Part shown: positions 1 to 62,666 of the stretch, piece by piece
How the letters are laid out: every line of letters begins with the position of its first letter
How positions within the stretch are numbered: the first letter of the stretch is position 1
Assembly (NCBI RefSeq): GCF_037042905.1
Contig: NC_087245.1
Coordinates: forward strand, 13,642,001-13,706,000
Length of the DNA stretch: 64,000 nt
DNA from: Lytechinus pictus
Taxonomy: Eukaryota
Direction of reading: 5' to 3'
Made by a program: the position numbers and the translations under genes
The notes under the pieces: model-generated
What the model saw: only the letters and a program-made list of their open reading frames with translations
Databases searched by the model: none
Told to the model about the DNA's origin: nothing

Positions 1-599
1 CTTCTCTTCAATCAATGATTTATTGCTTGCCAAATTCTTCAGTTTTCTCAGTGTTATCTGGACTTAACACTCTGTCCAGCCGTACTTGTACAACAAGTTG
101 ACATGAACTACCAGGGCTTATTACAATCAAAGGCCATTAACTAGAAGGAAAACAATTATTTTGAGTATTTTTCTTTATTGGTAGGTGAAAGTTGAATTAA
201 AGCTAGATTTTCTTCAAAATGTGAAGGTGATAATGATTTCTTTTGGTATTATCTCAAAAACTGAGTTGCATCCTTCTGTTGGCCAAGCATCTATTATGTA
301 TGATATTTTCAGGCTTTTTGTTCAGACATTCATACATTCATTACTGGATCCTTTCTTAATACATGTATCTGCACCCTATTAATCATACTTTATGCATAGA
401 TCGAATGTGTATAAACCTGGTTTCAAACCACATATTATTCAAAATCAACTTTACCAGTTCATGAGATATGACAGACATACAAGTCTTTACCTAGCGTTAA
501 GTAGTAAACAAGGATGCAACGTCCAAAACATACAGTATATTGGTAACAGAATTGCAATGACCATTTTAACCCCCCCCCCCATGTATTTATACTCAACAG

Positions 600-1093
600 A
601 TAATGTCATCGATCAGGACCTGTCACCTGGAGCCTCCCTGAGTTGGGTTGGAACAACCTTTGTCATATTAGATCTATCCACAGTCAGCTGTAGCTCTCTC
701 GTCTACTTCTGCATCTTGGCTGAAAGGAACCCCGACTCTCAGAGAAAAGATCTATCACCTCTTAATTTCGATGTTAACTCGTACATCGTTTGTGAGCAGA
801 TAGAGTGTGTGGGGCTTGAGATCGACACACTGACACTTACCCACAACGCAGATCAAGGTGACCCTCTGCGGGAGTTGGTAACCGGCAACCAGGACTTCTA
901 CTTGGACCTGACCATTGATCCTCTTTCGACCAGCGGCGGTGTGTCGGGTAACTGGACATTTGATGTCTACTTCAGTGACATGCAAGACTGTTCGAGTACG
1001 CCTACCAGTCTTCCGACCATTACTGTTGTTCCCTCAATGAAACAAATCTACCAAGACGTGGATGGACAATTGGTCACAATTGAAGGGATTCAA
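600..1093 (+). CDS. Exon 1: C-half of repeat R0 and N-part of R1
   Basis: cag|AT...CAA|gtaagt; DNVIDQDL...CEQIECVGLEIDT...IEGIQ. Confidence 0.85.
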
Positions 1094-4000
1094 GTAAGTG
1101 TCTTGTACCTGATCAATCACGATACATTCATGCAGGAATAAGGTTTGTTGCTTACAGCTTCATGGAAGGAATACCCCCTCCCCCTCATGATAATCAATAT
1201 TAATGAATTAATATAGAAAGGAAGGAATAAATTGATAAAATGAATAAATAAATAAATGAACAAGATATGAAAAAATGAATGCAAAAAAATTGAATAAAAA
1301 ATGAAATAGGACATAAATACAATAATAAATGAATAGATAAATGAATGAATGAAATACATGTAATACATCCAAATTATTGTACCATAAAAACTTTTTTCTT
1401 GAAATTCTAAAATCATTAGATTTATGTCTATGTACATACACAATATAATTAAGTATCTCAATTTTTATTAATGCAAAATGTATAGATTTTCTGGTGACAC
1501 TCATGTGCCTTACAGAAAATTTATTCAACACTATTTAAGTGGTCTAGGGCTGCTTTTATTCATATTCACAACCTTGGAGCATGGTTTAAAACTTCTGTTC
1601 AAATCATGGCTGCATTCAAGCTACAATGTAGTTTGCTTGGTTGTATACATAAAAAGTCTTTCACAAAGAACAAAGAATGTGCATTTTAAAAGGATTTGCA
1701 GGATAAGCCTTTAAACAAAGAACTACTTTTATGAACAAAAATAGCTGAAATCTGGCTGCAATGACCATCTATGTGTTTTAATATTTATTACTCTAGTTAA
1801 AAAAAAAAACATGTAATGTACCATACATGGTATCTGTAATTTATTTATCATGCAGGCACTATTATTGTTATGTTGCTACAATTGTTTGTTCTTATGAACA
1901 AATCATATTGATTTGGTCTATTTCTTCTCAGGTGAAGGTTGATCTGTCAAGGTTTGCATGTTCAAGCGCTCCGTACATGTGCTTAAATTTAACCAGTGCT
2001 TCATCTATGTCTCAAGCTATCACGGGCGAAACTACTGCTAGTTTACGTTATAATTGTAAAGGTAAGCCTTTAGGAAAATTTCTATGGCCATATTCTGAAC
2101 TTTGGTTCAACTTAAGGCTGTTCAAGAGTTATTGTTGAGTGCATCATGATATCTGCTCCTATTTTATGCTATGCATATTGACGTCAAAATGAATGAACAG
2201 GTGATTAATTAGCTGCAGGGATCAGGAGATATTTGCATGCTAACTGTAGGGCCCGTTGCAGAAAGAGTTGCAATCGATCGCAACTCTAAAAATCATTTGC
2301 AACTTGATTTTCAACCAATCAACAGCGTGCATTTGGGACTTGCGATTGATTTTTTGGCTTGAGTTTGAACACAAATCTTTCTGCAACGGGGCCCTGTCTT
2401 ACAATTGATCCAATCAATCCTAGCTCCATTGAAATCCATCAGTGTCATAATTTTTTCTACAGGAAATTTGCAAAATGTACTTTGTAAACAAAGGAGATCA
2501 CACCAAATTGTCAAGAAATCAATGAATTTATGGATATACATTCATATCTAGAATTTTTTTAACAAACATGTATTTTATATGTTGACTTTGCCGGCTTTCC
2601 ATACATGTAGTTGCGATTGATCCGATCAATTGCAACTCTTTGTAAGACAGGCCCTGAAGTACTCTTCTGTCATGCCAATTAGCCAATCCATGAACCCTCT
2701 TTTTAAAAGCCTCCACAACTTCAGAATACTTCACTCTGCAGTGCTGCAAAGTATGACAAATATGACCTCGAGTTTGAATAGCACTCATTACCTTGTGAAT
2801 TTCTCTTTATACTTCAGGAAATAAGTGTATTCAATTATCCGTTTTAGCGAACACAATAAATGAAATGAAATGAATAGATTGGAGAGTGGTTTTGAATTTT
2901 TTCTCACCTTTGGTGTGTTTTTGGTGTTTTTAAAGACACTTATGCTCCAAAAAAAGCACATGAACCCCTATTTTTTTAATGTTTACACCTACCTCTGCAA
3001 CCTTGCAAATTCTGGTGAAAATAAAATGGGTTTTGAGTTAAGTACAGCATTCATTGTACTTCTTGTATTTTATAAAAATTTCAAATCGTTATCATCCTTC
3101 TCACTGTTTTTCAGAATTGAGGTTGTGCTAGCCTTAAAAGAGCAAATAAACAGCAATATGAAGTCTCTGTCTGAAGTATAGATTAATGAACTTTACTGTA
3201 ACATGTAATGAAATAGCTCAGAGTTCAAAGAATTAATCTCATACCTTAAAATTGATTTGTGCTACCATGTGATTTTGTATGACAATAAATTACAGTTTAT
3301 GCAAAAGATCCATTCTCCTCGTCACTGACCTAAAGATTAGGGGGCGCTGGGGGCCATGGTCCCACAAAAGTTTCATGTTCAAGAAATAAGGGGGGGGGGA
3401 ATAAAGAAAATGAAAGATAGGAGGGGAAAATGTGATATGATATTCTGAAGAGTATGTCAATTTCTATCACCAAATTAGATGTTTGCATTAAAAAGGTCAA
3501 AATGTTTGCTTGTTCGCTCGCAGCTTTTTAGGAATTTGCCCCATACATGTAGACCATGTCTGGCCCCCTCAATTTGTTTGGCTAACGACTCCACTGTGCC
3601 ATTTGTCTTTAAAAAAAGTAGAATTAGCTGGGATACATGGGGGACAGGTTAGTGAATCTCATTTTTTTAAAAATTATTTTCATGTATGAAATTTGATGAA
3701 ATTGGAACAATTAGATTTATTTGAAAGAGTGAAATAGTTTTCATTTTGGAAAAGACTGTGAGGATAGGGCTGTGTTTGAAAAACAGTATAGTTCAGGATT
3801 GATGAAATCTTTAAAAGAAACCCTTTGACATTATATGAAGGGATAAAAAGAGCATTGATTGTTCATTTATAAGAAAATTCAAAGTTTGAAACTGCAAGCT
3901 AGCAAAAGGAATTTAATCACATCCTCCAGTCATCCCATGTAGGACAATGGATTTTGAAAGTCTAAATTGCTTTCATTCTCCAACATGACAAAATTAGTTA

Positions 4001-7000
4001 TTTCTGTTATTAGTCTGAATTGGTCATTTTTGTCTCGCCTGCATAGCAGAGTGAGACTATAGGCACCGCTTTTCCGGCGGCGATGGTAGCGGAGCCGTCA
4101 ACATTGAAATCTTAACCAAGGTTAAGTTTTTGAAATGTGAAAAAAGTATATGGACCTAGTTTATGAAATTAGGACATAAGATTAATCAAGTATTACTGAG
4201 CATCTGTTCTGAGTACCAGCTCACATGACCAAGGTCAAAGGTCATTTAGGGTCAACGAACTTTGATAATGTTGGGGGTATTTGTGGAATTGTGTCATCAT
4301 AACTTTAAACGTTTATAGATCTAGTTCATGAAATTTGGACATGAGAGTAACCATGTATCCCTAAATATATTGTGCTTGTTTCAGGTCACATGACCCAAAT
4401 CAAACTCATTTAGAGTCAATGAACTTTGGCTGTGTTGGGGGTATTTGTTGAATTGGCATCATAACTTAGAAAGTTTATGGATCTACACATTGTACTTCAT
4501 GAAACATAGACATAAGGGTAATCAAGTATGAATGATTGTTTTGTACGTCTTAGGTCACATGATCATGGTCAAACGTCATGTTGGGTCAATGGACATAGTA
4601 TTTTATTATCATATGAGTGTTTTCTTTTGTGAATAATTATTTAATAGCAGTTTTCAAAGTCAGCACTGCTGATATATCGAATCGCGTAATGCAGGCGAGA
4701 CTGCCAGAGGCGTTCCACTTGTTTTCCTGGTCATTGGTCTTTTTTTAAAACTGTATGTTATCTTTGAACTCCACAGGAATCAATCTTGTTGCTGACAGTG
4801 TCGTACTGAATAATATGCCAGTGGTCACAGAGCGTGCTCAAGGCGTTACGTTCGATGTTGATCTAAACGTGATTGCCAGAAGCGATGGCGGTGGTGCCAT
4901 TGATACCATTACAGGTCCTCTTTGGACCGCTTCATTTTTCTTTAGTCCTAACCAGAATGGCAATCCGATGGAACTACAAAGCAGTGCTACTACTGGACAA
5001 TGGGCTAGCATAGGTAATCTTCCTTTCTTTCTAAACCTCTGCAGATATTGTAATGGTATTTTTAAAGACTCCTACTGTATTAGGGCTGTGTATACGAACA
5101 GCATTGTTTTTTTTTATTTGTTTGAGTGTCTTAAACATTATGTTGTATACTTTCAGTATAAACCAATATTGTTTGCTGTTTTTTGTTGATGGTTGAATAA
5201 GTTATATTGAAAATGAAATTGTAGCATATTTTGTGGGGCTTTTGTTTGTTTAATTAATTCACCAGGTTATAGACATCACATGTAACTTATGCAGATCTCT
5301 CTGTATTCCACCCATTCCTCATATTAAAGGTTATTATATAAATATTGACTGCTCATATATATTCTAGCTCAAAATAAAATAAAGTGATCTCAGTTGCCAG
5401 TGTTGACCAAATGGTTATTAGATTAAATTTTTTTTAATGATAATGGATAAGATCATGAGGAATGAGCTTCGGTGGTTATTTTACCAAGTAGGATTATTAC
5501 ACTGAGTGGCATTCATTCATTAATTACAATTTTACAGATGTGCCGTCTGCCCGGGTAGGCTCTTCGGCTGATACTCCTACAGAATTGAGCAGTATCCCTG
5601 TCACTATCAACCTTGATTCAACCTGTGCTAACATGCAATGGTTGTGTGTTCAGCTCGACAATCATACAAATGCTTTGTTTACCTTTGAAGTGAGCAGCAG
5701 TGATAGAACAGCTTGCCTTCAGATAACGGAATGCCACGGTAAGTCATAGTTTTACTTCCGGCTTGGTCCCCAAGGGTTAGGATATCTTAAAGGACAAGTC
5801 CAACCCAACAAAAAGTTGATTTGAATAAAAAGAGAAAAATTCAACAAGCATAACACTGAAAATTTCATCAAAATCAGATATAAGATAAGAAAGTTATGAC
5901 ATTTTAAAGTTTTGCTTAACTTCACAAAACATTTATATGCACATCCTGGTGGGTATGCAAATGAGGAAACTGATGACGTCGTCCACTCACTATTTCTTTT
6001 GTATTTTATTATACAAAATAGGGAATATCCAATTTTTCTCCTCATTGTCAAGTAAAACAACAATTAATTCCTCCCTGAACACGTGGAATTAGTATTGTTT
6101 AATACTATTTGATTCAGTCAAGTTGGTTCTTATTTTCAAATCTATAAAAATGAAATATTGTATCATTCAAACAAAAAAAAATAGTGAGTGAGGGACATCA
6201 TTTGAGTTGTGCATATCACTGTTTTGTGGAAAATAAGCAAAACTTTAAAATGTCATAACTTTCTTATTTTACATCCAATTTTGATGAAATTTTCAGCATT
6301 ATGCTAGTTTGATTTTTCTCTATTTATCCAAATCAGCATTTTTGTGGGGTGGACTTGACCTTTAATTTCCTCATGCTGGCAGCAATTGCCCTTGGCCTCC
6401 CCTATTCAACCTACATATAGTTCATCCCCCGTCCTCCATTTTGTGGAGTTGTTGAGGATGAGTGGATAAGTCCCCATACATTGAACAACAAAACTAAACC
6501 ACCTTACACCAGCTGTCACAGCTGCCTCGCATCCTCTACCCATACATATCCTGTTTCCCAGAAAACAAGAACTCCTTCACTGAATCCACACCATGACATG
6601 GCCTTTCCACCATCCCTATAACTCTTTTTTTTTTGTACCCCCACACACAAGATCTTTTGCCCATCAAGTCATTGACATCAAACCACTGTGGAATTGTCTA
6701 CACATTCATCCAAATTATCAGAGTACATATTTTGTTTTGTCCGTCTGTATTCTGTTATCTTTTGAACATCTGTATTCTTACATAGTATCTACATTGTAGT
6801 AGTAATATTCATATATTCAATATACTCAATGCCATCTGGCAGTAGAACAAGACCTATATCATTGAAATAGGTTTAACCCTAAAATGATTTATATACTTTT
6901 TTTTGCTAGTTTCTTGTAACACCTTATAGCTCATTAGACGTCATGAGATGGTAATCTCCAAAATAAAGACAGGTTTAATTCCTACATGAAACAAGAAATT

Positions 7001-10000
7001 CAGTCTATATTTTCATGAAATGCTCAAGACATTCCTCATCCTTCATTCACAAAAAGGGTAATGTATCTACAGGGTTCCCACAGTCATGGTAAATCCTGGA
7101 AAATCCTGGAAAAATTTGTGGTCATGGAAAGTCATGGACTTTGGGAAATTTGTGAAAAGTCATAGAAAAGTTGTGGTATTGCATTTACCTCTTGGCTATC
7201 ACAGCTTTCCGGTTTGTCGTGTCTTGCAACTCTCATACTCTGCTATTGTAATTGGTGTTCATGATTTCCATTTTTTCCAGTTTTGTGACATCCCAAATTC
7301 TACATTTCCTCCCGGATGTGGGGGAAGTCATGGAAAGCAGCAATTTAGTCATGGAAAAGTCATGGAATTCTGTTTTCAAATTTCTGTTGGAACCCTCATC
7401 AGAATTCATTTAAAATCATTGTATAATAACAATATCTGTCTTCTCATTTCTTAATGAAAACAATTATTTGCACAATTCAGCATGAGATTAATTCATATTT
7501 GGTGAAGATGTTAATCTTATTTCTTTCGCCAACAATTTTATTCTTCTATTTGTTTCCAGGTGTGGAAATCGAAGAAACAAACGTGGCTATAGCAGATCCA
7601 TCATCAATCACTGTAATTGAAAACACACCAACTATCCTTAATCCTGAACTAGTCATTGATGGGCAGGCTGCAGCTACGAGTGCCTCCATCAGTGGAATAA
7701 ATCTGTGGAGCCTAGAGATATTCACTAGTTCTGATGGGATGTCAAAGGATGGAGGGGTCAACTTCTTGGAAACATTAACATCAAACCAGGTGGGGTAATT
7801 TTGCCTTGAGCTTGGAATGCTCCCCAGGAAGCGGAGAATCTTTTTTTTTTCTTCAAAACTTTGTAAATATGATAATATTTTATGGGGTTAGTTGAATGTA
7901 TCCATTAACCACAAAGCAGGTGTGTAAGTCATAATATTGGTTGAATGAAAGGAATGCTTTTCCTCTTGATCATGCTCTCTTTGACCTTTTCATATGACTG
8001 TGCCTAAATCCTCAGTAACATAATTCCTTTTAGATAGATAATCATCTCACTGGAACAATGATCATTATCATTTGAATGTATGATTGCGGTACAATCAATC
8101 ATTCATATAAAACAATTTTTTTTTATGCTTCCAATTTTCAGGAAGAAACTGCAATCACCACCGCAGGGGCCAGCTTTAACTTTACAGATGATGATCTGAT
8201 TGATATAACTTTTAACATGTCAAACCAACCCTGTGCTCTAAACAACTACCTCTGTGTAGAAATCATGATGGGGATGTCCCCTGAACCTACATTCACCCTG
8301 GAAGGTAACACGACAGCCTGTGTAAATCTCAACTGTAAAGGTAAGTATTAAGGTTCACTCAAACAGAAGTTTTGTGTTTTGGATTTTCACATCTGTGCAT
8401 CTATCAGGCTTGGTTATTTGTGTCTAGGGCTGACCTTTAAAGGCATACATGTATGGACGAGTAGCCTTGAAAGCGCCCTCTCAAGTCCTCACCTTCTCAC
8501 AGCTGGCCAGGTTCATTTCCAATAATGCAACATGATAGCACTTTAGTTTTGTAAAATATAGGTCCACTTGGATATTAGCACCCGCTAATGTACTTCTCAA
8601 TACATTCATATCAAAATAATTATGTTACCAAGTAGCAAAACAGGTACTTTTCTTTTAAAAAACATGATAGTTTTTCCACACATATGCCAATATATCGTCT
8701 GTATTACAAATAGTTATCTCAAGTTATATTCTATGACTAGCTATTTTTAACACACAATCAATGGGAAACCACTCACCGTGTCGTTCAGCTCGATCCCCCT
8801 TTAATGAAATATTACAAAAGATGTTAAGGAGCCATGTAGCATATGAACAAGTGCTGTGGCCAGGTTTTGAACCCTGGATTTCATGTCTCTAGTCCAGCCC
8901 ATCAGACCACGGCACCCCACTCTGGATACAGCATGATAAAGCTTATCAACAGGACTTAGCTGATTTGTGTCTACAAAGCTCACTATACAATCTGTACATT
9001 ATTCCAATATTAGAACTTTCATTACCATTCAGATCAACTTCATAATTTGATTGCATTTGGTCAGGTAGCATGTCGAGCTATAAAATCAGGAGCTTTGTAC
9101 TTTTCTTGAGTAGTTGAGTGTTGACTAATGCTAGCCATCTGTACGCATGTATGTGTGTATTGATATGGCACATTTTTTACATGCCCGTCCTAGACGTCCG
9201 TGCGTTAACTTTTCCTTGTAAACATAATAACTTCAGTTTAGCTTAACCTGGGCTCATATAATTTGGTGTGTATGATACTAGCATGGATCCTAGGAAGTCT
9301 ATAGATTTTGAGGTGAAAAGGTCAAAGGTCAATGTTGTCCGCATTACATTCGGGCATATAATGTGCTCGCCCCAGCAGCACTCTTGTTATGTAAATAAGC
9401 AAGGGAGACAATAATACTTACCTCAAACAAGGGGGGGGGTCTCTTTTAATTTCCTTAATTGGATGCATCATTCATAGACACATTAAAACAGAGAGGTGTG
9501 GATTTCTGTCTCAGCCATGACATGTTTTCTTTCACAAAGAAATTTATCTACATCGGGCTGCAGTCAACCCAGGTGAGGTGAATGGGCACTCAGCAAGATT
9601 TCTTCATTTACTCTTGTGCCTATGGCCTCTCAGCTGTAGCTGGGGTAATATTATGATGTCATGTATTACAGTATACCAGTAGAGTATATTAGCTGTGTTA
9701 TACTGTTACTCATCATTATCAAATTATGATTTGTCCAAACTTCAGCACTTAATTACCACAATTGCTTTTTTTTTTAATGAACAGGAATAATCGTGACAGA
9801 TACCGTGAACAACATCACCTCCATCCCCAATGGCGGTGTCCTTGTGGAAGGTTTCTCAAACCAGGCAGTTAATCTTGAGGTCACGCTAACCACTGACGGC
9901 AGTGGAGCTGAGGGGTCCGGTACAGGGCTGTGGCAGCTTGATGTCTTCACCAACGCATTTGAGAATGGCACCGGGGTGGTCAAGCAGTTTGATGCATCAT

Positions 10001-37000: not shown

Positions 37001-37969
37001 ATTAACCAAACCTTTTTGTTTTATCAATGTTTTGTTATTCCACAGGTGTCCGGGTGGAGAGCTTGTTCATAAACTTTATGAGTGGATTACCACTTCTGGA
37101 GCTTACTGCTTCACATGAAGTCAACTTCACTGTAAGTTCTCAGTTCCAACTACTCATAATTATTGCCACCAAGACATTTTTTATGAATGAGCTTTAATTC
37201 CCTATCAATTTATCAAATAGCAAGTCTAATGCCAGTTAGAAGTGCCCCTAGCTAGAATAAACAGTTCTTGAACTTTGGTTGCCCTGGCGACCGGTATAAG
37301 GACCTAAACGCCAGAACACTACTCATTTGTATGTTCAGTACCAACCATACATATTTGAAAGATGCCTGCTGAGTGTTTCATAAAGTTGTTCATAAGTTCT
37401 GCATGGCTTAACACATGACTTGTTATGATTTTGTGTGTAAAATCCCATACCCATCTGTATACTGTTCCTTGTTTTAATGTAATACCAGTAAACTTTCTAT
37501 AATTCTAATAAAATCTTGTCAAATAACAAATTTTGCTTTCAAATGCCTGCTAGCAATGAGAATTTCAATCTAACTAGTTAAGAATTTAGCTTTAGCCGAT
37601 GAGAATACAATTGATTGAGAATCTGATTTTTGCAAACCAAAGGATCACCAGTCACACATAGGTCATTTGTAACTTGAAACAGCCATTGGTTGAGTATTCT
37701 CAGATATGGAAGAAATGATTTCTCATTCTAAAGAAAAAGTTTGTGTCAGGGTTAATTAGGAGATTCCTTGGGTCCATTGTCCCTGAAATTGCACATTTGA
37801 CTTTGAACTGCATCCCGCTCGCAAAAGATTGTTCACTTGATGAGAATAATGATGATGATGAAACATAATGATGGCAATAATACAAATAATGACAATAAAA
37901 GTAATGATGATGATAAAGATGATGGTGACAATGATCATCATGATAATGATAACGGTGATGATGATGATT

Positions 37970-38007
<38 letters not shown>

Positions 38008-41000
38008 AATGAAACATTTATTTTTTTTCAATTTTCCTGCAGCTGACTGTTGCATCATCCTCAATGGGTGCTAGTGCTGTCGGTGAAGATCTGTGGTCCT
38101 TGACAACATTTCTCAGCCGCTATGAGAATGGCAGCAACCCGATCTCGGCAAAGACAGCGTACATCGGTAGCGATGCAAACATGGACCTAGCAGCCGGCCA
38201 GAGTATCGACATTGCAGCATCTGTCAATCTGAACACTAGTGACTTGGTGTGCGACTCCGAGTTCTTCCTTTGCGTGGTGCTATCGAAAGGAGATGGAGTG
38301 AATCCAGATTATACCCTAGAGGGTGACCTCCAAGTTTGCCGATCATTTGTATGCAATGGTAATATATTCATATCTACATGACTTCATCCTTGAAGTCATC
38401 TTTCATCATGCAATGATACAGAATTTAAATGCCACCTCTTGACTAGTCTCTAATCCATTCATGGGAAAAATTGCATTTTGTATATTATCTGAAAAAAAAT
38501 TCTTATTTGAGGTTCAGAATGACTATAAGAATAAAATATTCATGTGAGGGATGGAATTTGCAAGAAGTTTTTTTGAGTAATGGCCAAAATTAGTTCCTAA
38601 ATGTGGCCTGTTGTACGATTGCTTTGGTGTCATGATTCAATATTAAATTCAGTTTGATACATTATAATGGTTGTGAATTTCAAGTATGGACAATAGGATG
38701 GTCTGTTTTCTAATTTTCACATCAGATTTACAGTATGATATTCTGTTCTTAAATTGGGTCATAGGACAGTTGTAAGTTGTGCTTTGGCCTTAGATATTTG
38801 CACTCTTCCTGTTTTGCCCCCCAAAACAGCACACTGATTTATCAAACCATGGATGCATACACAAATGTACATTTCTCGAGCTTTTCTATTCATAAATTTG
38901 GCATCACTTAATTTCCATGGTAAAGAGTAATTTGAAGCAATCAAACTCTAAAAAAGGGAATATTTGATGCAAAAAAAAAATCACATTTACATAAACAATG
39001 TTAAAGATCAATTATTACATTTTAACTAGATAATAAATACAGATACAGTTTAAATTTATTTAGGTCAAATATCCTAATACCATGGAAACTGACTTTATTA
39101 GTAAATAGCATGTTTTTCATAATCTGATCTGGAAAAACAAAATTTGGAGGATTATTGGACTTGTAAAGACTTAATCTGTACATGTCTCATTGATGTTCAC
39201 ATAGGTGTAAATCTGACAAACGCTAACGTAACTATTAGTTCGGACGATGTGCTGCGGAACTTTGACCCCATGTCGGAGCTCACGGTTGATGTGAGTGTTG
39301 ATGTCATTGAGGGCTCTTCTACAGTTACTGGCCGAGATCTTTGGCACTTTGAGTTCTTCACCAGTACTGACTCAGCTGGAAATGTTTCACCTTCGGTAAG
39401 TGAATATGTTTATCCTTCATTTCTCATTAATTTTTTTTTCTTACAGGCTAAAGGATGGGAGAATTGTTGCAGATGTGTTGAATTGAGCTGGTGAAGTTTA
39501 ATTGTTTTCACATTGTATTTACATTGTTTTACGTTTTTGATACCATGACTTATACTTTAGCAAGAATTTAATATGATTGTGTTGCTAGTGAAGACATTCT
39601 TACTCTTTACACACAAACAGCCAAGAGCTACAGCAGACAATCTGACTGCAGAACAAGGTAGTGTGTCCCTAAACGCTGGAGAAACGTCTACCATCTCGGG
39701 TGTGATCGTGTACCTTGACTTGAGTTCAATCTCCTGTGACACTCCAAGGTATCTTTGTGTTGAGGTATGGAGAGGTGACCGAGCTTTCCCATTTTACTCC
39801 ATCAGCAACCTAGATTCCCAGACTCAGCTCAGAACATGCAGACCCATAGAATGTGCTGGTAAGTTATGTTTCTTTTGTGTTTTGTGTTCACCAATCCCTA
39901 AAGAAAGAAGGTGAAAGATGAATGTATATTTTTTTTATTCTAAGTGCTTGAAATTAGCTCTTTGTACCTTGAGGCAATGAAGCAATCTTGGTGATACCTG
40001 GGATGCTGTCTTGTAGAACGCTGCGATGATGCTTGCAACCATACTTTCCACAAATTAGTTAGAATGTAGATTTTTTATTACATTTAGGAATACAGGTGTG
40101 TCTACTAAAGTTAAATCTGTTTAGAGCATAAAATCTGTTGTGTGAAATTTGACTAAGGCAATTATTCAACCTATAGAAAATCAACTTATGCAGACTCAAG
40201 TATAATGTTTGTTTTCTATTATTATGCAAACAATCTTTCCAATTTAAGATTTTTTTTTTAATGGGGCGGGGGGGGTAATCTTGAATCTACATATTAAAAA
40301 AAAGATTTCATTACTCATGTGGAAAAGTATGTGTATACCAGAAATAATTAATCTTATATGCTTTTCACACTGCACATAGTTTCCTTAACCCCGGGAAATT
40401 GGATTAGACCCCCCCCCCCTTAGCCCCACCAATTTCCAGGGGTTAAGCTTAGCCCACTTCGGTTTCACACTACCTTTTAGCAAAGTGGGCTAGCATGGTA
40501 AATAGTATGGTACTATCTGGCCCTGCAAAAAATCAGGGTTAGCCGGCTTATTGCGGTGCTAAGAGATGCAGTGTGAAACGAAACCGCTAAGGCTAAGGAA
40601 AAGTGGGGCTAAGCGTTAGCCAATCACAGACGTCAAAATTGCACGTTAATCTCGCTCTGTGTGGCAAAATCATCAATATTCATGAGCTGTGCGATAGTCC
40701 AAAAGCAAATAGTATGGGGTTAAGAAAGACGCATATTAGCACTTATTGACTATCTCACTTCTATTCCATATTTCATTTTGCAGGAGTTAAGTTTGTGAGT
40801 GTCACTCCCGTAGTGATCACTCCACTTATTTGGATTGAGGAGCTTGCTAACCAGACCATCGCGTTGGAGGTCATCCTGATGCCTGATCCAGCCAGGTCTG
40901 GTATCGTTGGGGAAAACCTCTTCCAAGTAGATGTCTTTGCTTCAGCTTCAAACACTGGGACAGAAGGAGAGATCTCCCCGGTAAGTACATACAGACCATT

Positions 41001-44000
41001 CTCAAATACAAAAAAAAATTATATGTAACTTTGGAAAAAATCAAGTTGTCGCATTTTATTTTGTTGACTTCAGCCGTGTACCGGTGAAAATCAATCAAAT
41101 TTTTTTGCTTCAACATAAATATTATCGGGAAACTTTAATCTTGTTCAGTTGTAGCCAGATTTTCACAATATGAAGTGATATTTTAAAAAAAGCACTAGTC
41201 TTTGTGACATGGTTGATACATAGACACCAAGTTCAATGGCCAGTTCATGCAGGTAACTTCATTGTGATGTGCTGTGGTGTAAGAGAACTACAACCCTTGA
41301 CCAAATACCTACTGGCATTGAGAGGAGCCTGTACAAAGCCTAATGGAAGTAAAGAAATCAAAGCTCAATGCAGGAGTCTAGTATCTTGTCCTCAGAGTTC
41401 ACTGACCGTTGCCAGTTTGCGCCAATGCAAAGCGGCTGTGGCACCTAGTATTACCACTGTTTAGCCACTGCACGCCACTAAGCACCTTTTTTGGTGACAC
41501 TTGGTGCCACAGCTGTTTTGCATTGGTGCGAATTGGCACCAACTGGCGCGAACTGGCAACTGCCTAGTGGACTCCTAGCATAACACATGACATTTGGTCT
41601 ATTTAATCATAATCATTTCATTTATTCATGATCATTACACTGTCTATTAGACACCTGTGATGCTATCATTGAAAATAGTTCTCTAAATAGCACAAGTAAA
41701 TGAAACGTTGATTTGAGATTGAAACTATATTAATCAGCAGTTTCAACTAGTACAACAAAGTTAAATTTGTTGGGCAGGGAGGGAATGGCATGACAGCATG
41801 TACTGTGAAACAGAGGGGAAAAAATACTAGTATTAGGAAATATAGTTTGAGGAATTAGTGAAAGTTTGTTCAATTATGGTAAGTGCATAACATTTTGATA
41901 TTTTGTTTGTACTTTCAAGGTCACTGTACCTGTGTCTAATGCCTATGCATCGAACCTGAGGGTTGATCGTTTACAGAACAATACTCTGGTGAATATCCAG
42001 GCTTTAGTGGATTTCACTGGCCGGTCCTGCAGTGAACTCTCCTATATCTTTGTACGCGTCAGAAAGGGGACAAATGCCATGCCAAATTACTTGCTAGAGG
42101 GCGAGGATGATCTCTTGGATGATTCTAATCTTGGTTTTGCCCTTCAACCGTGTGCAGGTAATGATTATTATGGTGATAATGGAAGTGATACGGTGATGGG
42201 GATGATGATCATGATGAAAATGATGGTGCTAATGATGGTGATGATGATTAAGAAGAAGATGAAGGAGAAGGAGGAGGAGAAAAAGGAGGAGGGCGAGGGA
42301 GGCTGGGGTCTTAAGTTTTATATGCATTCATATATAGTCCCTTTTCATTATCCACTCATCAGATTAAAGGGGTGGTCCGGGCTGAAAATATTTGTATCTT
42401 AATACATAGAGTAGAACTCACTGAGCAAAATACCGAAAATTTCATCAAAATCGGATAACAAATAATAAAGTTATTGAAGTTTAAAGTTTAGCAATATTTT
42501 GTGAAAACAGTCATCATGAATATTCATTAGGTGGGCTGATGATGTCACATCTCCACTTTCCGTTTTCTTATGTTATTACATCAAATCATTTTTTTTTTTT
42601 TTTCATACTTAAGTGTGAATAATATGTCTCCCTTATAATGAAACAAGTTGCAGCAATAAATAGCTAACGCACTGAATCAGTTGTCAATCCAATTTTTCTA
42701 GCTCTTGGAGGAAAAAATTTGAATAAACCTAATTTCATATAATAAAATACAAAAGAACAAGTGGGGATGTGACATCATGAGCCCACCTAATGAATATTCA
42801 TGACAACTGTTTTCACAAAATATTGCTAAACTTTAAAATTCAATAACTTTGTTATTTGTTATCCGATTTTGATGAAATTTTCGGCATTTTGCTCAGTGAA
42901 TTCTACTCTATGTATTAAGCTATAAATACTTTCAGCCCGGACCATCCCTTTAACACTCCCATTCAGTAATACCCATTAATATAACAACTTTTTTCTCTTG
43001 AACCTTCATAGGCATAATTGTCAATTCTGTTATTCCAACTCTTAACCTGGGATCTAACAACATCCTTGAAGGGGATTCAGCTCATACCTTCTCATTCTCG
43101 GTTGATGTATCTACCGGAAATGGAATTATAACTGATGGAACTAATGAGGATTGGCAGCTTGAAGTATGTATCTCTGCTTTTTATATATTTGAAGTAAACG
43201 GTGTGGGGAATCATTTTATGTTGTTGTTGTCTCACCTGCATAGCAGAAGTGAGACATACATTTAGGAGCAGCTCCATTTGAATACTGCATAATCATGTCA
43301 AGGTGAAAATACCTTTTAGGCAATAAATGCAGGTGAGTCACGGGAGCATGCCACTTTGATCATTGTATTTAGGGTGTTTTATATTTGTTAAATAGAAAAG
43401 GAAGTAATTTCATTTATTCCACTTTATATAAGATTTTTTTTTTCTCCTTTCCAAACTAATAACAATATTGTTGATGTTGTATTTTTGACTGAATATTTGA
43501 TTCATCTATAAAATAATGATTTCATCTTGTGTTTCCTTTATATTGAGCTTTTTGCTTTTATATATTATGTTTATTTCATAATATTATTATATATTATGTT
43601 ATTTTACATTGTATTTGAATATTTTTTTATATGGTTAATAAATGAATTGAAAATTGAAAAAATCTAAACATTCTTCATCATTAAGAGTTTGATTTATTCA
43701 TATGTTAAAGAGAATGAATATTTCTGTCACCACTTCTCTGTCAATACTAGCAAATAAGAACCCAAAATGAATTCAAACACGTCAGATTCAGTGGACAATT
43801 CAGGATATAAGAACTAAGGCTGCAGCACACTTAATGAAATATATTTCGGTTGGCCAGTTTTTGTTGATTAAAATAATCCATTGATGCAATTCACGAAGTA
43901 GAAAATAGGCGGACATTCTGGGTTCCCATGCCTTGAAAAAATAAAATTCAAGCAAGCTTGACATCACTTGCAATGTGCTTGATTATGTAACCATAGTAAC

Positions 44001-47000
44001 TGATCAACATCATGTCTTCATCCTAGGTGTTTGTGAGTCTCTTCAACGATGGAAGAGCTCCTCTGCGGAACGTACTTATAGAGGACCTGAGTTCCCCATC
44101 GTCGCCCGACAGTCAAATTGTGTTCTCTGATCTTCAGGCTACTCTCAATCTCTCTGGTCTGGGATGCGATCAATTCAGGTACTTCTGTGCCCGTCTGAGT
44201 GCCCCCGGAGCCAACTTCACCTTGATGGGGGCTCCTACCGAATCTTCTCTCCTTGGCTGTGTTTCTTCTCAGTTAACTTGCTTAGGTAACATTCCTGCTG
44301 TGTATATGAATATCTCCTGGGGAATTACCACTTGGTCTACGTTAATCCCACTTTGTCTAATGGCTGTTTGGTACATCCTGGGGAGTATTTAGAAGGCTGT
44401 TTGGAAAGTCACTAATGAATTTACAACCGACTTGTACATGTTCTTAGATGCTGAGACAGTTACATAGTGATATATTAAGGGTCACCAGTCTTTATGTAAA
44501 GCCATGCTGCATGCATACCTTCCAAAAAGGTTTATGAAATGGCCACTGCATGTTAAGTGTCCTGGGGCCATTTCATAAAGCTGTTCGTAATTTAAGAGTG
44601 ACTTTAAGAATGACTGGTGATCCTTTCTTATGGTATACACCAAAACATTCATTGACGAGGGTTTTATGCCTAAGAAAAGATCACCACTCGTTCTTAAAGT
44701 CGCTCTTAACTTACGAGCAGCTTTATGAAACACCCACCTGAAATATAGAAGATGCAATCAATTGTATCAGTAAGCTTGCCTGTAAGTTTATGACAAAAAC
44801 ATTTACAAAACTTACAATCAATTGTAATCTTTATGTTCATTTATTTGTGATACACTCCCCTGATCCCATTAAGTAAGCATTTCATCCAACTGCTGCTTAA
44901 TCCATATGCCTTATGGTTTAACACAGAAGAGGGGTATTGCAAGAAACTTGAAAGTCATGTTTAGGTCCCTAATTCAATCATAGTTGTTTATAAAGTCTAT
45001 TGCAAATTTGGGATGGGTTTCTTGCTTACTTTTTAATAGGCCCTTGCTAAAGCAAATCATGTGTAGGTTACAGTGCTTTGCTTTGCTGTGAGTAAAGTGC
45101 TATGTGGGTGAAGGAAGATACCAACTCTAATAAATCAGATATTCAGTAAACATAAAATGTGTCATTATCATACAGATTTGGTATATCCATTATTTTGTAA
45201 GCATGATACATATTATTTTTTTCTGAAGAACAGTTTTATGTGTGATATCTTTACAGCAATTAATCTCAATCTGAGATTACAGGTCTTCACTGATACTACC
45301 CTGACCGTTGAGTGGGAACCATCCATCGGAGATTTCGATTCCTACCTCCTTGCTATTAATCCGCGGGAAGGACCAAACCCGGAATATTCGCAGATCAAAT
45401 CGCTTGGAACCTACATGCATACATTCACCGGTTTAACTCCTGGGAATAATTATACAGTCTCTATACAGCTTACCAAGGGGGGTGTGCAGAAAGGAGCGGC
45501 TAATGTCCTTTCTCAAACAACTCTATGTACGTATACTCATCTTGGTCAATTTTCAATGAAATTTGATTGGATAATTGCTCCTTTCATTAATTTTTGTCTC
45601 GCCCACCAGAGGTGAAGGCGAGACTTAGGGATCCAAATGTCGTCCGTCCGTCACAAACCTAATGACACATATAACTCCACAACCGTAAGTCGCTTTTCAA
45701 CCAAACTTGGATGGTAGATGGACTTGGGGGACCTGCATGTTATGCTGCAGTCAGAGGTCACATGGTAAGGTCAAAGGTCATTTTCAGGTCAACGTTAAAG
45801 TTTACATGCAAGACTCTCTTATGACACCTAACTCCGCAACCGTAAGTCGATTTTTCAACCAAACTTGGATGGTAGATAGACTTGGGGGACTTGCATGTTA
45901 TGCTGCAGTCCGAGGACACATGATAAGGTCAAAGGTCATTTTCAGGTCAACGTTAAAGTTTACATGCAAGACTCTCTTATGACACCTAACTCCGCAACCG
46001 TAAGTCACTTTTCAACCAAACTTGGATGGTGGATGGACTTGGGGGACCTGCATGTTAGGCTGCAGTCCGAGGTCACATGGTAAGGTCAAAGGTCATTTTC
46101 AAGTCAACGTTAAAGTTTACATGCAAGATTTTCTTACGACACCTAACTCCGCAACCATTAATCACTTTTCAACCAAACTTGGATGGTAAATAGACTTGGG
46201 GGACTTGCATGTTATGCTGCAGTCAGAGGTCACATGGTAAGGTCAAAGGTCATTTTCAGGTCAACGTTAAAGTTTACATGCAAGACTCTCTAGACTTATG
46301 ACACCTAACTCCGCAACCATTAATCACTTTTCAACCAAACTTGGATGGTAGATAGACTTGGGGCACCTGCATGTTATGCTGCAGTCCGAGGTCACATGGT
46401 AAGGTCAAAGGTCATTTTCAAGTCAACGTTAAAGTTTACATGCAAGACTCTCTTATGACACCTAACTCCGCAACCATTAATCACTTTTCAACCAAACTTG
46501 GATGGTAGATAGACTTGGGGGACCTGCATGTCATGCTGCAGTCACATGGTAAGGTCAAAGGTCATTTTCAGGTCAACGTTAAAGTTTACATGCAAGACTC
46601 TCTTATGACACCTAACTCTGCAACCGTAAGTCGCTTTTCAACCAAACTTGGATGGTAGATGGACATGAGGGACCTGCATGTTATGCTGTAGTCAGAGGTC
46701 AAAGGTCATTTTCAGGTCAATGTTAAAGTTTACATGCAAGACTTTCTTATGACACCTAACTCTGCAACCGTAAGTCGCTTTTCTACAAAACTTGGATGGT
46801 AGATGTACCTAGACGACCTGCATGTTATGCTGCAGTCATAGGTCACATGGTATTAAAGGTCAAAGGTCATTTTCAGGTCAATATTAAAGTTTACGTGCAA
46901 GGCTCTTATGACAAGTGTTATTCCATCCCAGTCATTTCACAATGAAGTTTTGATACAATTCTGTTGCGTGCTCTCGCAAATCACGATATTTCTGGTTATT

Positions 47001-62450: not shown

Positions 62451-62666
62451 GTAAGTGCAGAGATCAGAAGAGAAATCCTGTCCAAGATTTACCTTAACAC
62501 TCCTTCATTGATTCACTCATCACAGCCAAGTCATTATGTATCTTGCTCTTCAAACCTTCTCTTGCACTGTCTAACTACAGCAGTCACAATGACAAATATC
62601 ACTGGCAACTGTAAAGGATCTTGATAGTCACCAATCATATTGATAGAGAGGCGGCAATTAGGAGCG

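What the first reader, a model, noticed from the sequence alone, without database searches (positions are those of the whole stretch)
600..44285. Candidate new ~140-aa extracellular repeat domain
Seen: 24 complete units (R2-R24 are 133-147 aa) share a sparse consensus, G-V-x-I...E...F/V-x-V...V-S-G-x-N/D-L-W-x-L-x-x-F-x-S...G...L-x-A-G...L-D-L-S-x(2-3)-C-x(4-7)-Y-L-C-V...P-x-F-T-L...C-x(4-6)-C-x-G. Alternating hydrophobic residues suggest beta strands. Units are acidic, poor in Lys/Arg and rich in N-x-S/T sequons. They are highly diverged from one another, so the array is old. It does not match the FN3, Ig, cadherin, CUB, EGF, SRCR, HYR or Calx-beta signatures as I know them.
Basis: partly seen in the sequence, partly recalled or inferred. 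Interest (0 to 1): 0.85.

Follow-up and report, generated by a model that had tools for sequence, protein, structure and literature searches.

The report
SURF-module array in a receptor phosphatase
The ~140-residue repeat is real, but it is the 'SURF' module already described in sea-urchin collagens and fibrosurfin, here found as about 27 copies forming the outer part of a receptor tyrosine phosphatase.

Summary
The + strand carries 25 repeat units in the window (R1 partial) and 2 more just upstream. Units are 133-148 aa with four conserved cysteines, and nearly all are bounded by phase-1 introns. The - strand gives 0 hits.

The repeat is not a new domain. A profile built only from window units matches all 13 modules of Paracentrotus lividus fibrosurfin (E 1e-13 to 9e-31). 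hhalign gives probability 99.9%, E 1.6e-35, over 136 of 138 columns. It also matches the run of modules between VWC and the triple helix of a starfish fibrillar collagen. These are the published four-cysteine SURF modules (PMC2852846, PMC10817530).

Pfam-A has no model for the module.

The gene is an R3-type receptor tyrosine phosphatase: 27 SURF, 6 FN3, PTP_tm, TM, one PTP domain. It is annotated only as an 'uncharacterized protein' of 4890 aa (P0196).

All 29 named clusters of 30 looked up are echinoderm or hemichordate. SURF also sits on a tyrosine kinase, an adhesion GPCR and other proteins.

The predicted fold is a generic Ig-like beta-sandwich (pLDDT 89.8; best Z 7.8).

Verdict: a known module in an undescribed receptor context. 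Interest is moderate.

The parts
599..814 (+). SURF unit R1, C-terminal part. Its N-terminal exon lies upstream of the window at about -361..-143. It runs into R2 with no intron at 814/815.
   Evidence: HMM positions 71-137, E 3e-11. Exact match to P0196 residues 337-502. No donor at 814.
815..2063 (+). SURF unit R2 (exons to 1096 and 1929-2063)
   Evidence: ends C-K-G|GT
4776..5740 (+). SURF unit R3 (exons 4776-5012, 5537-5740)
7559..8342 (+). SURF unit R4 (exons 7559-7789, 8139-8342)
9784..10722 (+). SURF unit R5 (exons 9784-10104, 10609-10722). Its terminal Gly codon is replaced by A|GT.
11402..11806 (+). SURF unit R6, single exon
13284..14492 (+). SURF unit R7 (exons 13284-13484, 14271-14492)
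15103..15513 (+). SURF unit R8, single exon (6 Cys)
16084..17705 (+). SURF unit R9 (exons 16084-16212, 17412-17705)
   Evidence: The N-terminal exon is weak for the HMM but is exact in P0196.
18364..18783 (+). SURF unit R10, single exon
19582..21234 (+). SURF unit R11 (exons 19582-19785, 20995-21234)
22208..22615 (+). SURF unit R12, single exon; the unit that was folded (model m3af16058b8aa)
22889..24830 (+). SURF unit R13 (exons 22889-23137, 24645-24830)
25328..26609 (+). SURF unit R14 (exons 25328-25480, 26319-26606)
27641..28042 (+). SURF unit R15, single exon (starts D-V, 5 Cys)
28689..29481 (+). SURF unit R16 (exons 28689-28925, 29290-29481)
30045..30722 (+). SURF unit R17 (exons 30045-30362, 30609-30722)
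31666..32649 (+). SURF unit R18 (exons 31666-31944, 32497-32649)
33179..34500 (+). SURF unit R19 (exons 33179-33409, 34306-34500)
34913..35329 (+). SURF unit R20, single exon
   Evidence: Spliced directly to R21 in transcript contigs (table 8).
36015..36437 (+). SURF unit R21, single exon; first fold model (me4be95141ad4)
37045..38360 (+). SURF unit R22 (exons 37045-37131, 38043-38360)
39204..39860 (+). SURF unit R23 (exons 39204-39395, 39621-39860)
40780..42159 (+). SURF unit R24 (exons 40780-40983, 41920-42159); degenerate, only 2 of the 4 Cys
43011..44287 (+). SURF unit R25, last of the array (exons 43011-43166, 44027-44284)
45256..53216 (+). Fibronectin type III region (exons 45256-45525, 48345-48650, 49528-49812, 50409-50669, 50819-51091, 51724-51852, 52331-52444, 53151-53216)
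   Evidence: fn3 E 8.5e-11 to 2.7e-6 on four exons. Six fn3 stretches in P0196. GT..AG joints in transcript contigs and raw RNA reads. Exact exon map.
53677..55724 (+). Juxtamembrane PTP_tm domain typical of R3 receptor phosphatases (exons 53677-53826, 54223-54462, 55656-55724)
   Evidence: PF18861, 30.9 bits against cut-off 26.3 in P0196 residues 4371-4482. E 0.003 on the single exon. Exon map.
56267..56386 (+). Exon with the single transmembrane helix (P0196 residues 4507-4527)
   Evidence: Kyte-Doolittle 21-residue mean 3.07, the highest in the protein; exon map
58506..62451 (+). Tyrosine phosphatase domain, first six exon blocks (58506-58595, 59940-59999, 60778-60912, 61515-61637, 62296-62451, following 57046-57918). 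The WPD loop reads W-P-T at 62296-62451. The HCx5R catalytic loop is split by the next intron and completed at window +65294, outside the window.
   Evidence: Y_phosphatase E 3.1e-74 in P0196 residues 4627-4853

Best explanation
The window holds most of one gene on the + strand for a single-pass receptor protein tyrosine phosphatase of the R3 type. Its ectodomain has, beyond six FN3 domains, an N-terminal rod of at least 27 tandem SURF modules; 25 are in the window at 599-44287. SURF is the ~140-aa four-cysteine module first described in sea-urchin fibrillar-collagen N-propeptides and in fibrosurfin.

Shown:
- Homology of the units to fibrosurfin and collagen SURF modules.
- The exon structure: one or two exons per module, with phase-1 boundaries, so modules can be duplicated or shuffled without breaking the frame.
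- Continuity of the SURF array with the FN3, PTP_tm, TM and PTP parts in one annotated product and in spliced transcript contigs.
- A confident predicted Ig-like beta-sandwich fold.
- Restriction of all named relatives to echinoderms and hemichordates.
- Loss of the general-acid Asp of the WPD loop in this gene and in 5 orthologues, while the Cys-x5-Arg loop is kept.

Inferred:
- The 27 glycosylated beta-sandwich modules form a long extended stalk. At a few nm per Ig-like domain this would be of the order of 100 nm; that figure is my estimate.
- The other known SURF carriers sit on or between collagen fibrils: the retained 5-alpha N-propeptide, the cleaved 2-alpha N-propeptide and fibrosurfin. 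So the SURF array most likely docks the receptor to the collagen-fibril surface or to other SURF proteins.
- The cytoplasmic domain, lacking the WPD Asp, then acts either as a weak or 'trapping' phosphotyrosine binder or on another substrate class, as the WPE-bearing PTPRQ does on phosphoinositides.

I put the identity (a SURF array in an R3-like RPTP) at about 0.9 and the matrix-docking mechanism at about 0.3.
For: - Repeat reality: 44 + strand hits against 0 - strand hits in 134 kb. A phase-1 G|GT donor ends 24 of 26 units, and a phase-1 AG acceptor starts 19 of 19.
- SURF identity, forward: the window-only profile A2 hits fibrosurfin (P0167, Q9GNU3_PARLI, named) at 13 back-to-back full-length units, residues 262-2095, E 1.2e-13 to 9e-31, ending where its EGF domains start at 2099.
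- SURF identity, profile to profile: hhalign of A2 against the 13 fibrosurfin units gives probability 99.93%, E 1.6e-35, 136 aligned columns.
- SURF identity, reciprocal: an HMM made only from the 13 fibrosurfin units finds 43 exon hits on the + strand and 0 on the - strand.
- Collagen context: in Acanthaster fibrillar collagen P0005 the profile's 7 units (126-1146) lie between VWC (72-123) and the collagen repeats (first listed stretch from 1174), with COLFI at the C-terminus. This is the position the review gives for SURF modules (PMC2852846 passages).
- Cysteines: exactly four in 23 of 27 units.
- One gene: P0196 (4890 aa) maps by exact 8-mers to 62 exon blocks at 599-62451. It carries 27 SURF, 6 fn3, PTP_tm and one Y_phosphatase.
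- Transcripts: contig X1 record 1 (6417 nt) joins 35000-35325, 36014-36433, 38043-38357 and the first FN3 exon 45255-45526. A second contig joins the FN3 exons with GT..AG joints, four of which (at 50667, 51092, 52441, 53215) are also seen by 2 to 6 raw RNA reads each of run X20. RNA depth over the SURF exons is low and almost wholly of one orientation.
- Same architecture elsewhere: Patiria P0170 and Acanthaster P0171, Ptychodera P0008 and Saccoglossus P0009, Diadema P0197 (precomputed Pfam).
- WPD loop: window WPT, starfish WPV (2), hemichordates WPI (2), crinoid WPA. HCx5R is present in all.
- Fold: pLDDT 89.8, pTM 0.83, all-beta.
Against: - The primary SURF papers (Exposito 1992; Cluzel 2001, 2004) were not held. 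The published module boundaries and length (140-145 aa is my recollection) were therefore not compared directly. Identity rests on the named fibrosurfin sequence and on review passages.
- No binding partner is shown. The matrix-docking role is extrapolated from where other SURF proteins are found, and the reviews say fibrosurfin's own function is unknown.
- RNA coverage of the SURF exons is low (depth 0-4 in raw reads). The contig runs are only guessed to be RNA.
- P0196 starts inside a SURF unit with no signal peptide. The 5' end of the gene is therefore not defined and the count of 27 is a minimum. No further unit is found at E<1 within 34 kb upstream.
- Catalytic consequences of the WPD change are inferred from general PTP knowledge, not tested.
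Confidence: 0.85

Rival explanations
1. The unit is a truly new domain family with no described relative.
For: There is no Pfam-A match for any unit: 7 window units, 64 family members and the whole 3773-residue array in P0196. A sequence search of PDB chains with profile A2 found nothing at E<=1.
Against: The unit is homologous end to end to the 13 modules of named fibrosurfin. It is also found at the VWC-to-triple-helix position of a fibrillar collagen. These are the published SURF modules.
Confidence: 0.02
2. SURF is not a family of its own but a very diverged branch of an existing Ig-like or E-set family (FN3, CARDB, transglutaminase or arrestin-like beta-sandwiches). It would then belong inside an existing Pfam clan. 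This is compatible with the main explanation and concerns only classification.
For: The confident model is a beta-sandwich whose best structural neighbours are Ig-like or E-set domains. These include the Spo0M arrestin-like lobe (Z 7.8, rmsd 4.1, 112 aligned), the TRAP subunit (Z 7.3), a bacterial ester-bond adhesin repeat (Z 7.2), the transglutaminase barrel (Z 6.9), FN3 domains (Z 5.7-6.0) and CARDB (Z 5.8). The language-model look-alikes are CARDB clusters at 0.84-0.88, which is below the 0.9 lead level.
Against: No neighbour stands out: 0 chains reach Z>=8, and the tool notes that Z 7-8 is typical for models with no true match. The best Foldseek E is 4.9e-4 with TM 0.38. No Pfam family recurs among the 64 members.
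Confidence: 0.3
3. The SURF array and the FN3-PTP part are two neighbouring genes, a secreted SURF protein and an ordinary R3 phosphatase, fused only by automatic annotation.
For: The old S. purpuratus model P0172 (3028 aa) holds only SURF units and no Pfam domain. There is a 1-kb gap between the last SURF exon (44284) and the first FN3 exon (45256).
Against: Transcript contig X1 record 1 contains SURF exons R20-R22 and the FN3 exon 45255-45526 in one 6417-nt record. Unit R25 ends with the same phase-1 G|GT donor as internal units, not with a stop. The fused architecture is modelled independently in 6 other species of 4 classes.
Confidence: 0.03

Closest known systems
SURF modules of fibrosurfin (Paracentrotus lividus, Q9GNU3; P0167)
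   Same: Same module: about 140 aa, four cysteines at the same alignment positions, the same G-V...SG-x-NLW...F-S...AG...C...Y/F-x-C-V...P-x-F-L...C-x(4)-C-x-G consensus, and tandem head-to-tail arrays sharing the boundary Gly. hhalign probability 99.9%.
   Different: Fibrosurfin is a secreted interfibrillar matrix protein with 13 modules followed by EGF domains. Here there are at least 27 modules on a transmembrane phosphatase. Sequence identity to fibrosurfin is only about 26%.
SURF modules in N-propeptides of echinoderm fibrillar collagens (sea-urchin 2-alpha and 5-alpha chains; starfish P0005)
   Same: The window profile recognises the run of modules between VWC and the triple helix. [quoted passage not shown]
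   Different: In collagens the array is a propeptide, either cleaved or retained on the fibril surface. Here it is the distal ectodomain of a signalling receptor. The sea-urchin collagen sequences themselves were not fetched; the test used a starfish collagen.
R3-subtype receptor tyrosine phosphatases (PTPRB, PTPRJ/DEP-1, PTPRH, PTPRO, PTPRQ)
   Same: An FN3 ectodomain, the PTP_tm juxtamembrane domain, one transmembrane helix and a single catalytic domain. Loss of the WPD Asp recalls PTPRQ (WPE). The 2017 survey lists an acorn-worm R3 with WPI near the PTPRQ cluster (PMC5336234 passages), and Saccoglossus P0009 has WPI.
   Different: Vertebrate R3 ectodomains are described as FN3 only (PMC5336234 abstract). 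Here 77% of the protein (3773 of 4890 aa) is the SURF array. The loop has Thr, Val, Ile or Ala, not Glu, in place of Asp. That the paper's 'Acorn worm' is P0009 is my inference.
Generic Ig-like / E-set beta-sandwich domains
   Same: Predicted two-sheet beta-sandwich of similar size.
   Different: No specific structural relative (best Z 7.8). There is an extra C-terminal C-x(4-6)-C-x-G hairpin with two cysteines. No sequence signal to any Pfam Ig-like family.

Membership tests
SURF (sea urchin fibrillar) module | Sequence homology to the modules of fibrosurfin | tested here: met
   A2 profile: 13 of 13 fibrosurfin modules hit, E 1.2e-13 to 9e-31. hhalign probability 99.93%, E 1.6e-35, 136 columns. 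The reciprocal fibrosurfin-only HMM gives 43 + strand hits and 0 - strand hits.
SURF (sea urchin fibrillar) module | Four-cysteine module (PMC2852846) | tested here: met
   23 of 27 units of P0196 have exactly 4 Cys; the others have 6, 6, 5 and 2. Three Cys columns are invariant and the fourth is at least 90% conserved in 64 sequences.
SURF (sea urchin fibrillar) module | [quoted passage not shown] | tested here: met
   This holds for the family the profile defines. In Acanthaster collagen P0005, VWC is at 72-123, 7 units at 126-1146 and collagen repeats from 1174, with COLFI at the end. It does not apply to the window's gene, which is not a collagen.
SURF (sea urchin fibrillar) module | Module length of about 140-145 aa (recalled from the primary papers, not seen) | tested here: inconclusive
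   Units here are 133-148 aa and fibrosurfin units are 139-147 aa by the profile's envelopes. The published figure could not be read.
R3-subtype receptor protein tyrosine phosphatase | Single cytoplasmic PTP domain with the Cys-x5-Arg loop | tested here: met
   One Y_phosphatase stretch at 4627-4853, E 3.1e-74. VIHCGAGIGRSG is present.
R3-subtype receptor protein tyrosine phosphatase | Juxtamembrane PTP_tm domain (PF18861) and FN3 repeats | tested here: met
   PTP_tm 30.9 bits against cut-off 26.3; 6 fn3 stretches, E 5.1e-49.
R3-subtype receptor protein tyrosine phosphatase | Ectodomain composed only of FN3 repeats (PMC5336234 abstract) | tested here: not met
   27 SURF modules precede the FN3 region. 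It is therefore best called R3-like with an added SURF array.
R3-subtype receptor protein tyrosine phosphatase | WPD loop with the general-acid Asp (kept in all but PTPRQ-like members) | tested here: not met
   W-P-T at 62296-62451. Orthologues have WPV, WPV, WPI, WPI and WPA.
Any Pfam-A family (FN3, Ig, cadherin, CUB, EGF, SRCR, HYR, Calx-beta and others) for the repeat unit | Match to the family HMM at or near its gathering score | tested here: not met
   No window unit reaches a family's cut-off (best E 0.064). Among 64 members, 14 families are hit once each at E 0.008-0.08. There is no match in P0196 residues 1-3773. SMART, InterPro and CDD were not available.

The most novel reading that the evidence does not exclude
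SURF is an ambulacrarian invention (echinoderms plus hemichordates). It was spread by phase-1 exon shuffling from matrix proteins onto three classes of signalling receptor: this R3-like phosphatase, a receptor tyrosine kinase and an adhesion GPCR. The 27-module phosphatase would be a direct cell-surface sensor of SURF-decorated collagen fibrils or fibrosurfin. Its Asp-less catalytic domain would work as a phosphotyrosine trap or on a non-protein substrate. That would give echinoderm mutable connective tissue a matrix-to-cell signalling link that has not been described.
Probability: 0.15. Interest if true: 0.7.

Novelty: new member of a known kind. Interest (0 to 1): 0.4.

Why it matters
The domain is not new, so the headline claim falls. 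Three things remain useful.

1. SURF has no model in Pfam-A. As a result 77% of a 4890-aa receptor, and hundreds of echinoderm and hemichordate proteins, are annotated 'uncharacterized' (484 representatives at E<=0.001). The alignments made here could seed a family.

2. In the literature I could search, SURF is treated as a sea-urchin collagen and fibrosurfin feature. Here it is found in all five echinoderm classes and three hemichordates. It occurs on a receptor phosphatase, a receptor tyrosine kinase, an adhesion GPCR, perlecan-like proteins, and lectin, Kazal/Kunitz, Sushi, HYR, SEA and SRCR proteins.

3. The known SURF proteins decorate collagen fibrils in mutable collagenous tissue, whose control is still unexplained. 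A SURF-bearing receptor is a concrete, testable candidate for how cells read that matrix.

Tried and rejected
- Word-indexed protein search with A1, lengths 'longer': no hit, because only proteins of 248-2000 aa were scored. The exhaustive profile search replaced it.
One unit was used as the query instead.
It was dropped from the scan and its units were mapped with my own HMM.
- First fold model from 7 sequences (pLDDT 74.4) gave only generic E-set neighbours. The deeper model (pLDDT 89.8) gave the same generic picture. No specific fold relative can be named.
- ESM Atlas: CARDB look-alikes at 0.84-0.88, below the tool's lead level. Not used.
- PDB sequence search with A2: 0 hits at E<=1.
- Complex prediction with two copies of unit R12: 'no answer' (score 0.00). 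It says nothing about SURF-SURF binding.
- The look-up of sequencing runs: no listed holder is on record as RNA. The lay was used instead.
- Own-genome search with whole fibrosurfin returned only EGF-rich loci and did not locate the fibrosurfin gene.
- Earlier findings of the scan: nothing by place, by sequence or by words.
- Papers not held: Cluzel 2001 and 2004 and Byrum 2006.
- Literature searches for SURF outside collagen and fibrosurfin. 'SURF module / fibrosurfin / sea urchin fibrillar' found 24 papers. 'SURF domain / SURF repeat / sea-urchin fibrillar / SURF-containing / four-cysteine module' found 5 papers. 'SURF + tyrosine phosphatase + sea urchin' found 2 papers, with nothing in their titles or abstracts on this topic. 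None describes SURF modules in a phosphatase or in hemichordates.
- The 2023 review 'Extracellular Matrix of Echinoderms' has 0 occurrences of fibrosurfin, and its 8 'surf' hits include no SURF module in the nine passages shown.
- Supplements of PMC5336234, which may list domain maps of the sea-urchin and acorn-worm R3 proteins, were not opened.

Full report
**What is in the window**

The window is metazoan genomic DNA (GC 33-40%). It has short open frames on the + strand separated by introns.

I aligned seven units that each lie in a single exon (A1). An HMM from them, and later from 36 exon pieces (A2), was run over every stop-to-stop ORF. The search covered the window plus 40 kb upstream and 30 kb downstream, fetched.
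- 44 hits among 909 + strand ORFs, all between window -5024 and 44284.
- 0 hits among 884 - strand ORFs.

The hits assemble into 25 units in the window and two more upstream. In the window R1 is only a C-terminal part and R2-R25 are complete.

Unit boundaries are regular.
- 24 of 26 unit ends read C-x-G with the exon ending after the first base of the Gly codon (G|GT).
- 19 of 19 unit starts follow an AG acceptor in the same phase.
- The exceptions are the R1/R2 boundary, which has no intron, and R5, which ends A|GT.

Seven units are single exons. The rest carry one extra intron at varying positions.

- D+E 12.5% against K+R 4.1%.
- 2.2 N-x-S/T sequons per unit against 1.5 expected from composition.
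- Pairwise identity among the single-exon units is 18-26%.

**The gene**

Downstream of the array lie four exons matching fn3, one matching PTP_tm and one matching Y_phosphatase. A LINE-type reverse transcriptase ORF sits at 62628-63998.

A database protein, P0196, maps by exact 8-mers onto 62 exon blocks from 599 to 62451. It is 4890 aa and NCBI names it 'uncharacterized protein LOC129263629 [Lytechinus pictus]'. It continues into the flanks, so it is the annotated product of this locus.

Its architecture:

| Residues | Feature |
|---|---|
| 6-3773 | 27 SURF-profile units; no Pfam hit |
| 3778 to about 4341 | six fn3 stretches |
| 4371-4482 | PTP_tm, 30.9 bits against cut-off 26.3 |
| 4507-4527 | the one strongly hydrophobic segment |
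| 4627-4853 | a single Y_phosphatase domain, E 3.1e-74 |

The model starts inside a unit and has no signal peptide, so the 5' end is incomplete. No further unit appears at E<1 in the 34 kb upstream.

Laying public runs on 35000-54900 gave transcript evidence.
- One 6417-nt contig (run X1, record 1) joins exons R20, R21 and R22 with the first FN3 exon at 45255-45526.
- Another contig joins the FN3 and juxtamembrane exons through GT..AG joints. Four of these (at 50667, 51092, 52441, 53215) are also crossed by 2 to 6 raw RNA reads each of run X20.
- Raw-read depth over the SURF exons is low (0-4) and almost all of one mate orientation, as expected for a + strand transcript in a stranded library.

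**What the unit is**

Pfam-A has nothing for it.
- The seven units give no family above its cut-off; the best is E 0.064.
- Across 64 family members, 14 families are hit, each by one member only, at E 0.008-0.08.
- A PDB sequence search with A2 found nothing at E<=1.

The exhaustive profile search against 1.84 billion representatives found 484 proteins at E<=0.001, 311 at E<=1e-10 and 40 at E<=1e-30.

Two of the named hits gave the lead.
- An Acanthaster fibrillar collagen (P0005) has the profile's seven units at 126-1146. They lie between VWC at 72-123 and the collagen repeats from 1174, with COLFI at the C-terminus.
- S. purpuratus proteins have 13 units followed by EGF domains.

A search with one of the S. 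purpuratus proteins returned Paracentrotus lividus 'Fibrosurfin' (Q9GNU3, 2656 aa, P0167). It is 66% identical over the whole 13-unit region.

Three direct tests followed.
- The window-only profile hits fibrosurfin at 13 contiguous full-length units, residues 262-2095, E 1.2e-13 to 9e-31. They stop where its EGF domains begin at 2099.
- hhalign of the window profile against those 13 units gives probability 99.93%, E 1.6e-35, over 136 of 138 columns.
- An HMM made only from the 13 fibrosurfin units finds 43 exon pieces on the window's + strand and none on the - strand.

The literature I could read agrees.
[quoted passage not shown] Four cysteines are present in 23 of 27 units here. The repeat is therefore the SURF module.

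The primary JBC papers were not held. The 140-145 aa figure is my recollection.

**Distribution and partners**

Of 30 clusters looked up, 29 carry a source name, and all 29 are echinoderm or hemichordate.
- Crinoids: Anneissia, Antedon.
- Echinoids: Strongylocentrotus, Diadema.
- Asteroids: Acanthaster, Patiria, Asterias.
- Ophiuroid: Amphiura.
- Holothuroids: Apostichopus, Holothuria.
- Hemichordates: Saccoglossus, Ptychodera, Glandiceps.

Lytechinus and Paracentrotus were added.

The SURF + FN3 + PTP_tm + PTP architecture recurs in Patiria (4504 aa), Acanthaster (4491 aa), Ptychodera (6 units) and Saccoglossus (6 units). Diadema (4937 aa) shows SURF, FN3 and PTP, but no PTP_tm in its precomputed Pfam list. 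The crinoid protein has 31 units and a PTP signature.

Other partner domains found:
- a tyrosine kinase (P0062);
- GPS + 7tm_2, an adhesion GPCR (P0098);
- LDLa + Ig + Laminin_B, perlecan-like (P0004, P0010);
- SEA, SRCR, C-type lectin, Kazal, Kunitz, Sushi, HYR, C8 with LDL-b, and VWC.

The window's own genome holds further arrays on other contigs. The symmetric phase-1 boundaries explain how one module could be copied into so many contexts.

**Structure**

With a 64-sequence alignment (A3), AlphaFold gives pLDDT 89.8 and pTM 0.83. The model is an all-beta sandwich with a short helix.

Neither Foldseek nor the all-against-48,161 VIA search singles out a relative.
- Foldseek: best E 4.9e-4, TM 0.38.
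- VIA search: 0 chains at Z>=8; best is Spo0M at Z 7.8, rmsd 4.1, 112 aligned.

The neighbours are assorted Ig-like or E-set domains. The fold class is ordinary, but no solved structure is close.

**How it probably works**

Shown: an extracellular array of at least 27 Ig-like, cysteine-stabilised, glycosylation-rich modules sits on a single-pass receptor. Its catalytic loop is intact (VIHCGAGIGRSG) but its WPD loop reads W-P-T.

The general-acid Asp is also absent in all five orthologues examined: WPV twice, WPI twice and WPA.

A 2017 survey of R3 phosphatases lists an acorn-worm sequence with WPI near the PTPRQ cluster (PMC5336234, passages). That this is the Saccoglossus SURF protein is my inference. 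The terms 'N-terminal' and 'amino terminal' have 0 occurrences in that paper's main text, so nothing I saw there points to an N-terminal repeat region.

Inferred: every SURF protein whose location is known lies on or between collagen fibrils. The array therefore most likely tethers the receptor to fibril surfaces or to other SURF proteins. The Asp-less domain then signals as a slow or trapping phosphotyrosine binder, or on another substrate as PTPRQ does. This rests on general PTP knowledge and is recalled.

I rate this mechanism at about 0.3. The identity of the parts I rate at about 0.9.

**Novelty**

The module is already described, so the finding as stated ('candidate new domain') fails.

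I did not find the following in the held literature (searches; review check):
- SURF modules on a receptor phosphatase, a kinase or a GPCR;
- SURF modules in hemichordates;
- a structural model of the module;
- a family-database entry for it.

I therefore class it as a new member of a known kind, of moderate interest.

Noticed in passing
window 62628-63998 (+), runs off the window end: An open frame of 457 aa with a reverse-transcriptase domain (RVT_1, E 7.5e-37). It is a LINE-like insertion inside the intron that splits the phosphatase catalytic loop (exons end at 62451 and resume at +65294).
   Followed up: partly
window 62296-62451: The WPD loop of the phosphatase reads W-P-T. The general-acid Asp is also missing in the starfish (WPV), hemichordate (WPI) and crinoid (WPA) orthologues, so the loss is old and conserved across Ambulacraria.
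   Followed up: yes
window 814/815: R1 and R2 are the only neighbouring units with no intron between them; the frame runs straight through C-V-G-L-E-I.
   Followed up: partly
window 40780-42159 (unit R24): This unit keeps only 2 of the 4 conserved cysteines (Y-I-F replaces Y-L-C) and matches the profile only to position 128-129. It may be a structurally relaxed module.
   Followed up: no
window 40312-40975, 42304-42967, 44296-47615, 50936-51599: Intronic stretches with contig or read depth hundreds to thousands of times that of the exons, many variant letters and loose ends. They look like high-copy interspersed repeats, some of them transcribed.
   Followed up: no
window 37700-38070 (-) and 57867-58345 (both strands): Long mechanical ORFs made of His, Ile, Asp or Met runs. 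These are simple-sequence tracts in introns, not genes.
   Followed up: no
G000 contigs C3 43.687-43.920 Mb, C10 34.313-34.424 Mb, C18 21.222 Mb, C3 18.124 Mb: Dozens of further SURF-like exons cluster at these places, mostly as whole units in single open frames of 145-323 aa. They are presumably the collagen, fibrosurfin and other SURF genes of this genome. A search with whole fibrosurfin hit only EGF-rich loci and did not resolve which is which.
   Followed up: partly
P0062 (Apostichopus), P0098 (Diadema): SURF modules also sit on a receptor tyrosine kinase (VWC + 2 SURF + kinase) and on an adhesion GPCR (2 SURF + GPS + 7tm_2). So three receptor classes carry the module.
   Followed up: partly
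P0196 N-terminus; window -6047 and upstream: The annotated product starts inside a SURF unit and lacks a signal peptide. No further unit is detectable within 34 kb upstream, so the first exon or exons are unannotated or lie further away.
   Followed up: partly
window 11387-11899 (-): A 170-aa ATG-started ORF lies antisense to unit R6. It gave no hit in the - strand HMM scans. I take it as a chance antisense frame.
   Followed up: no
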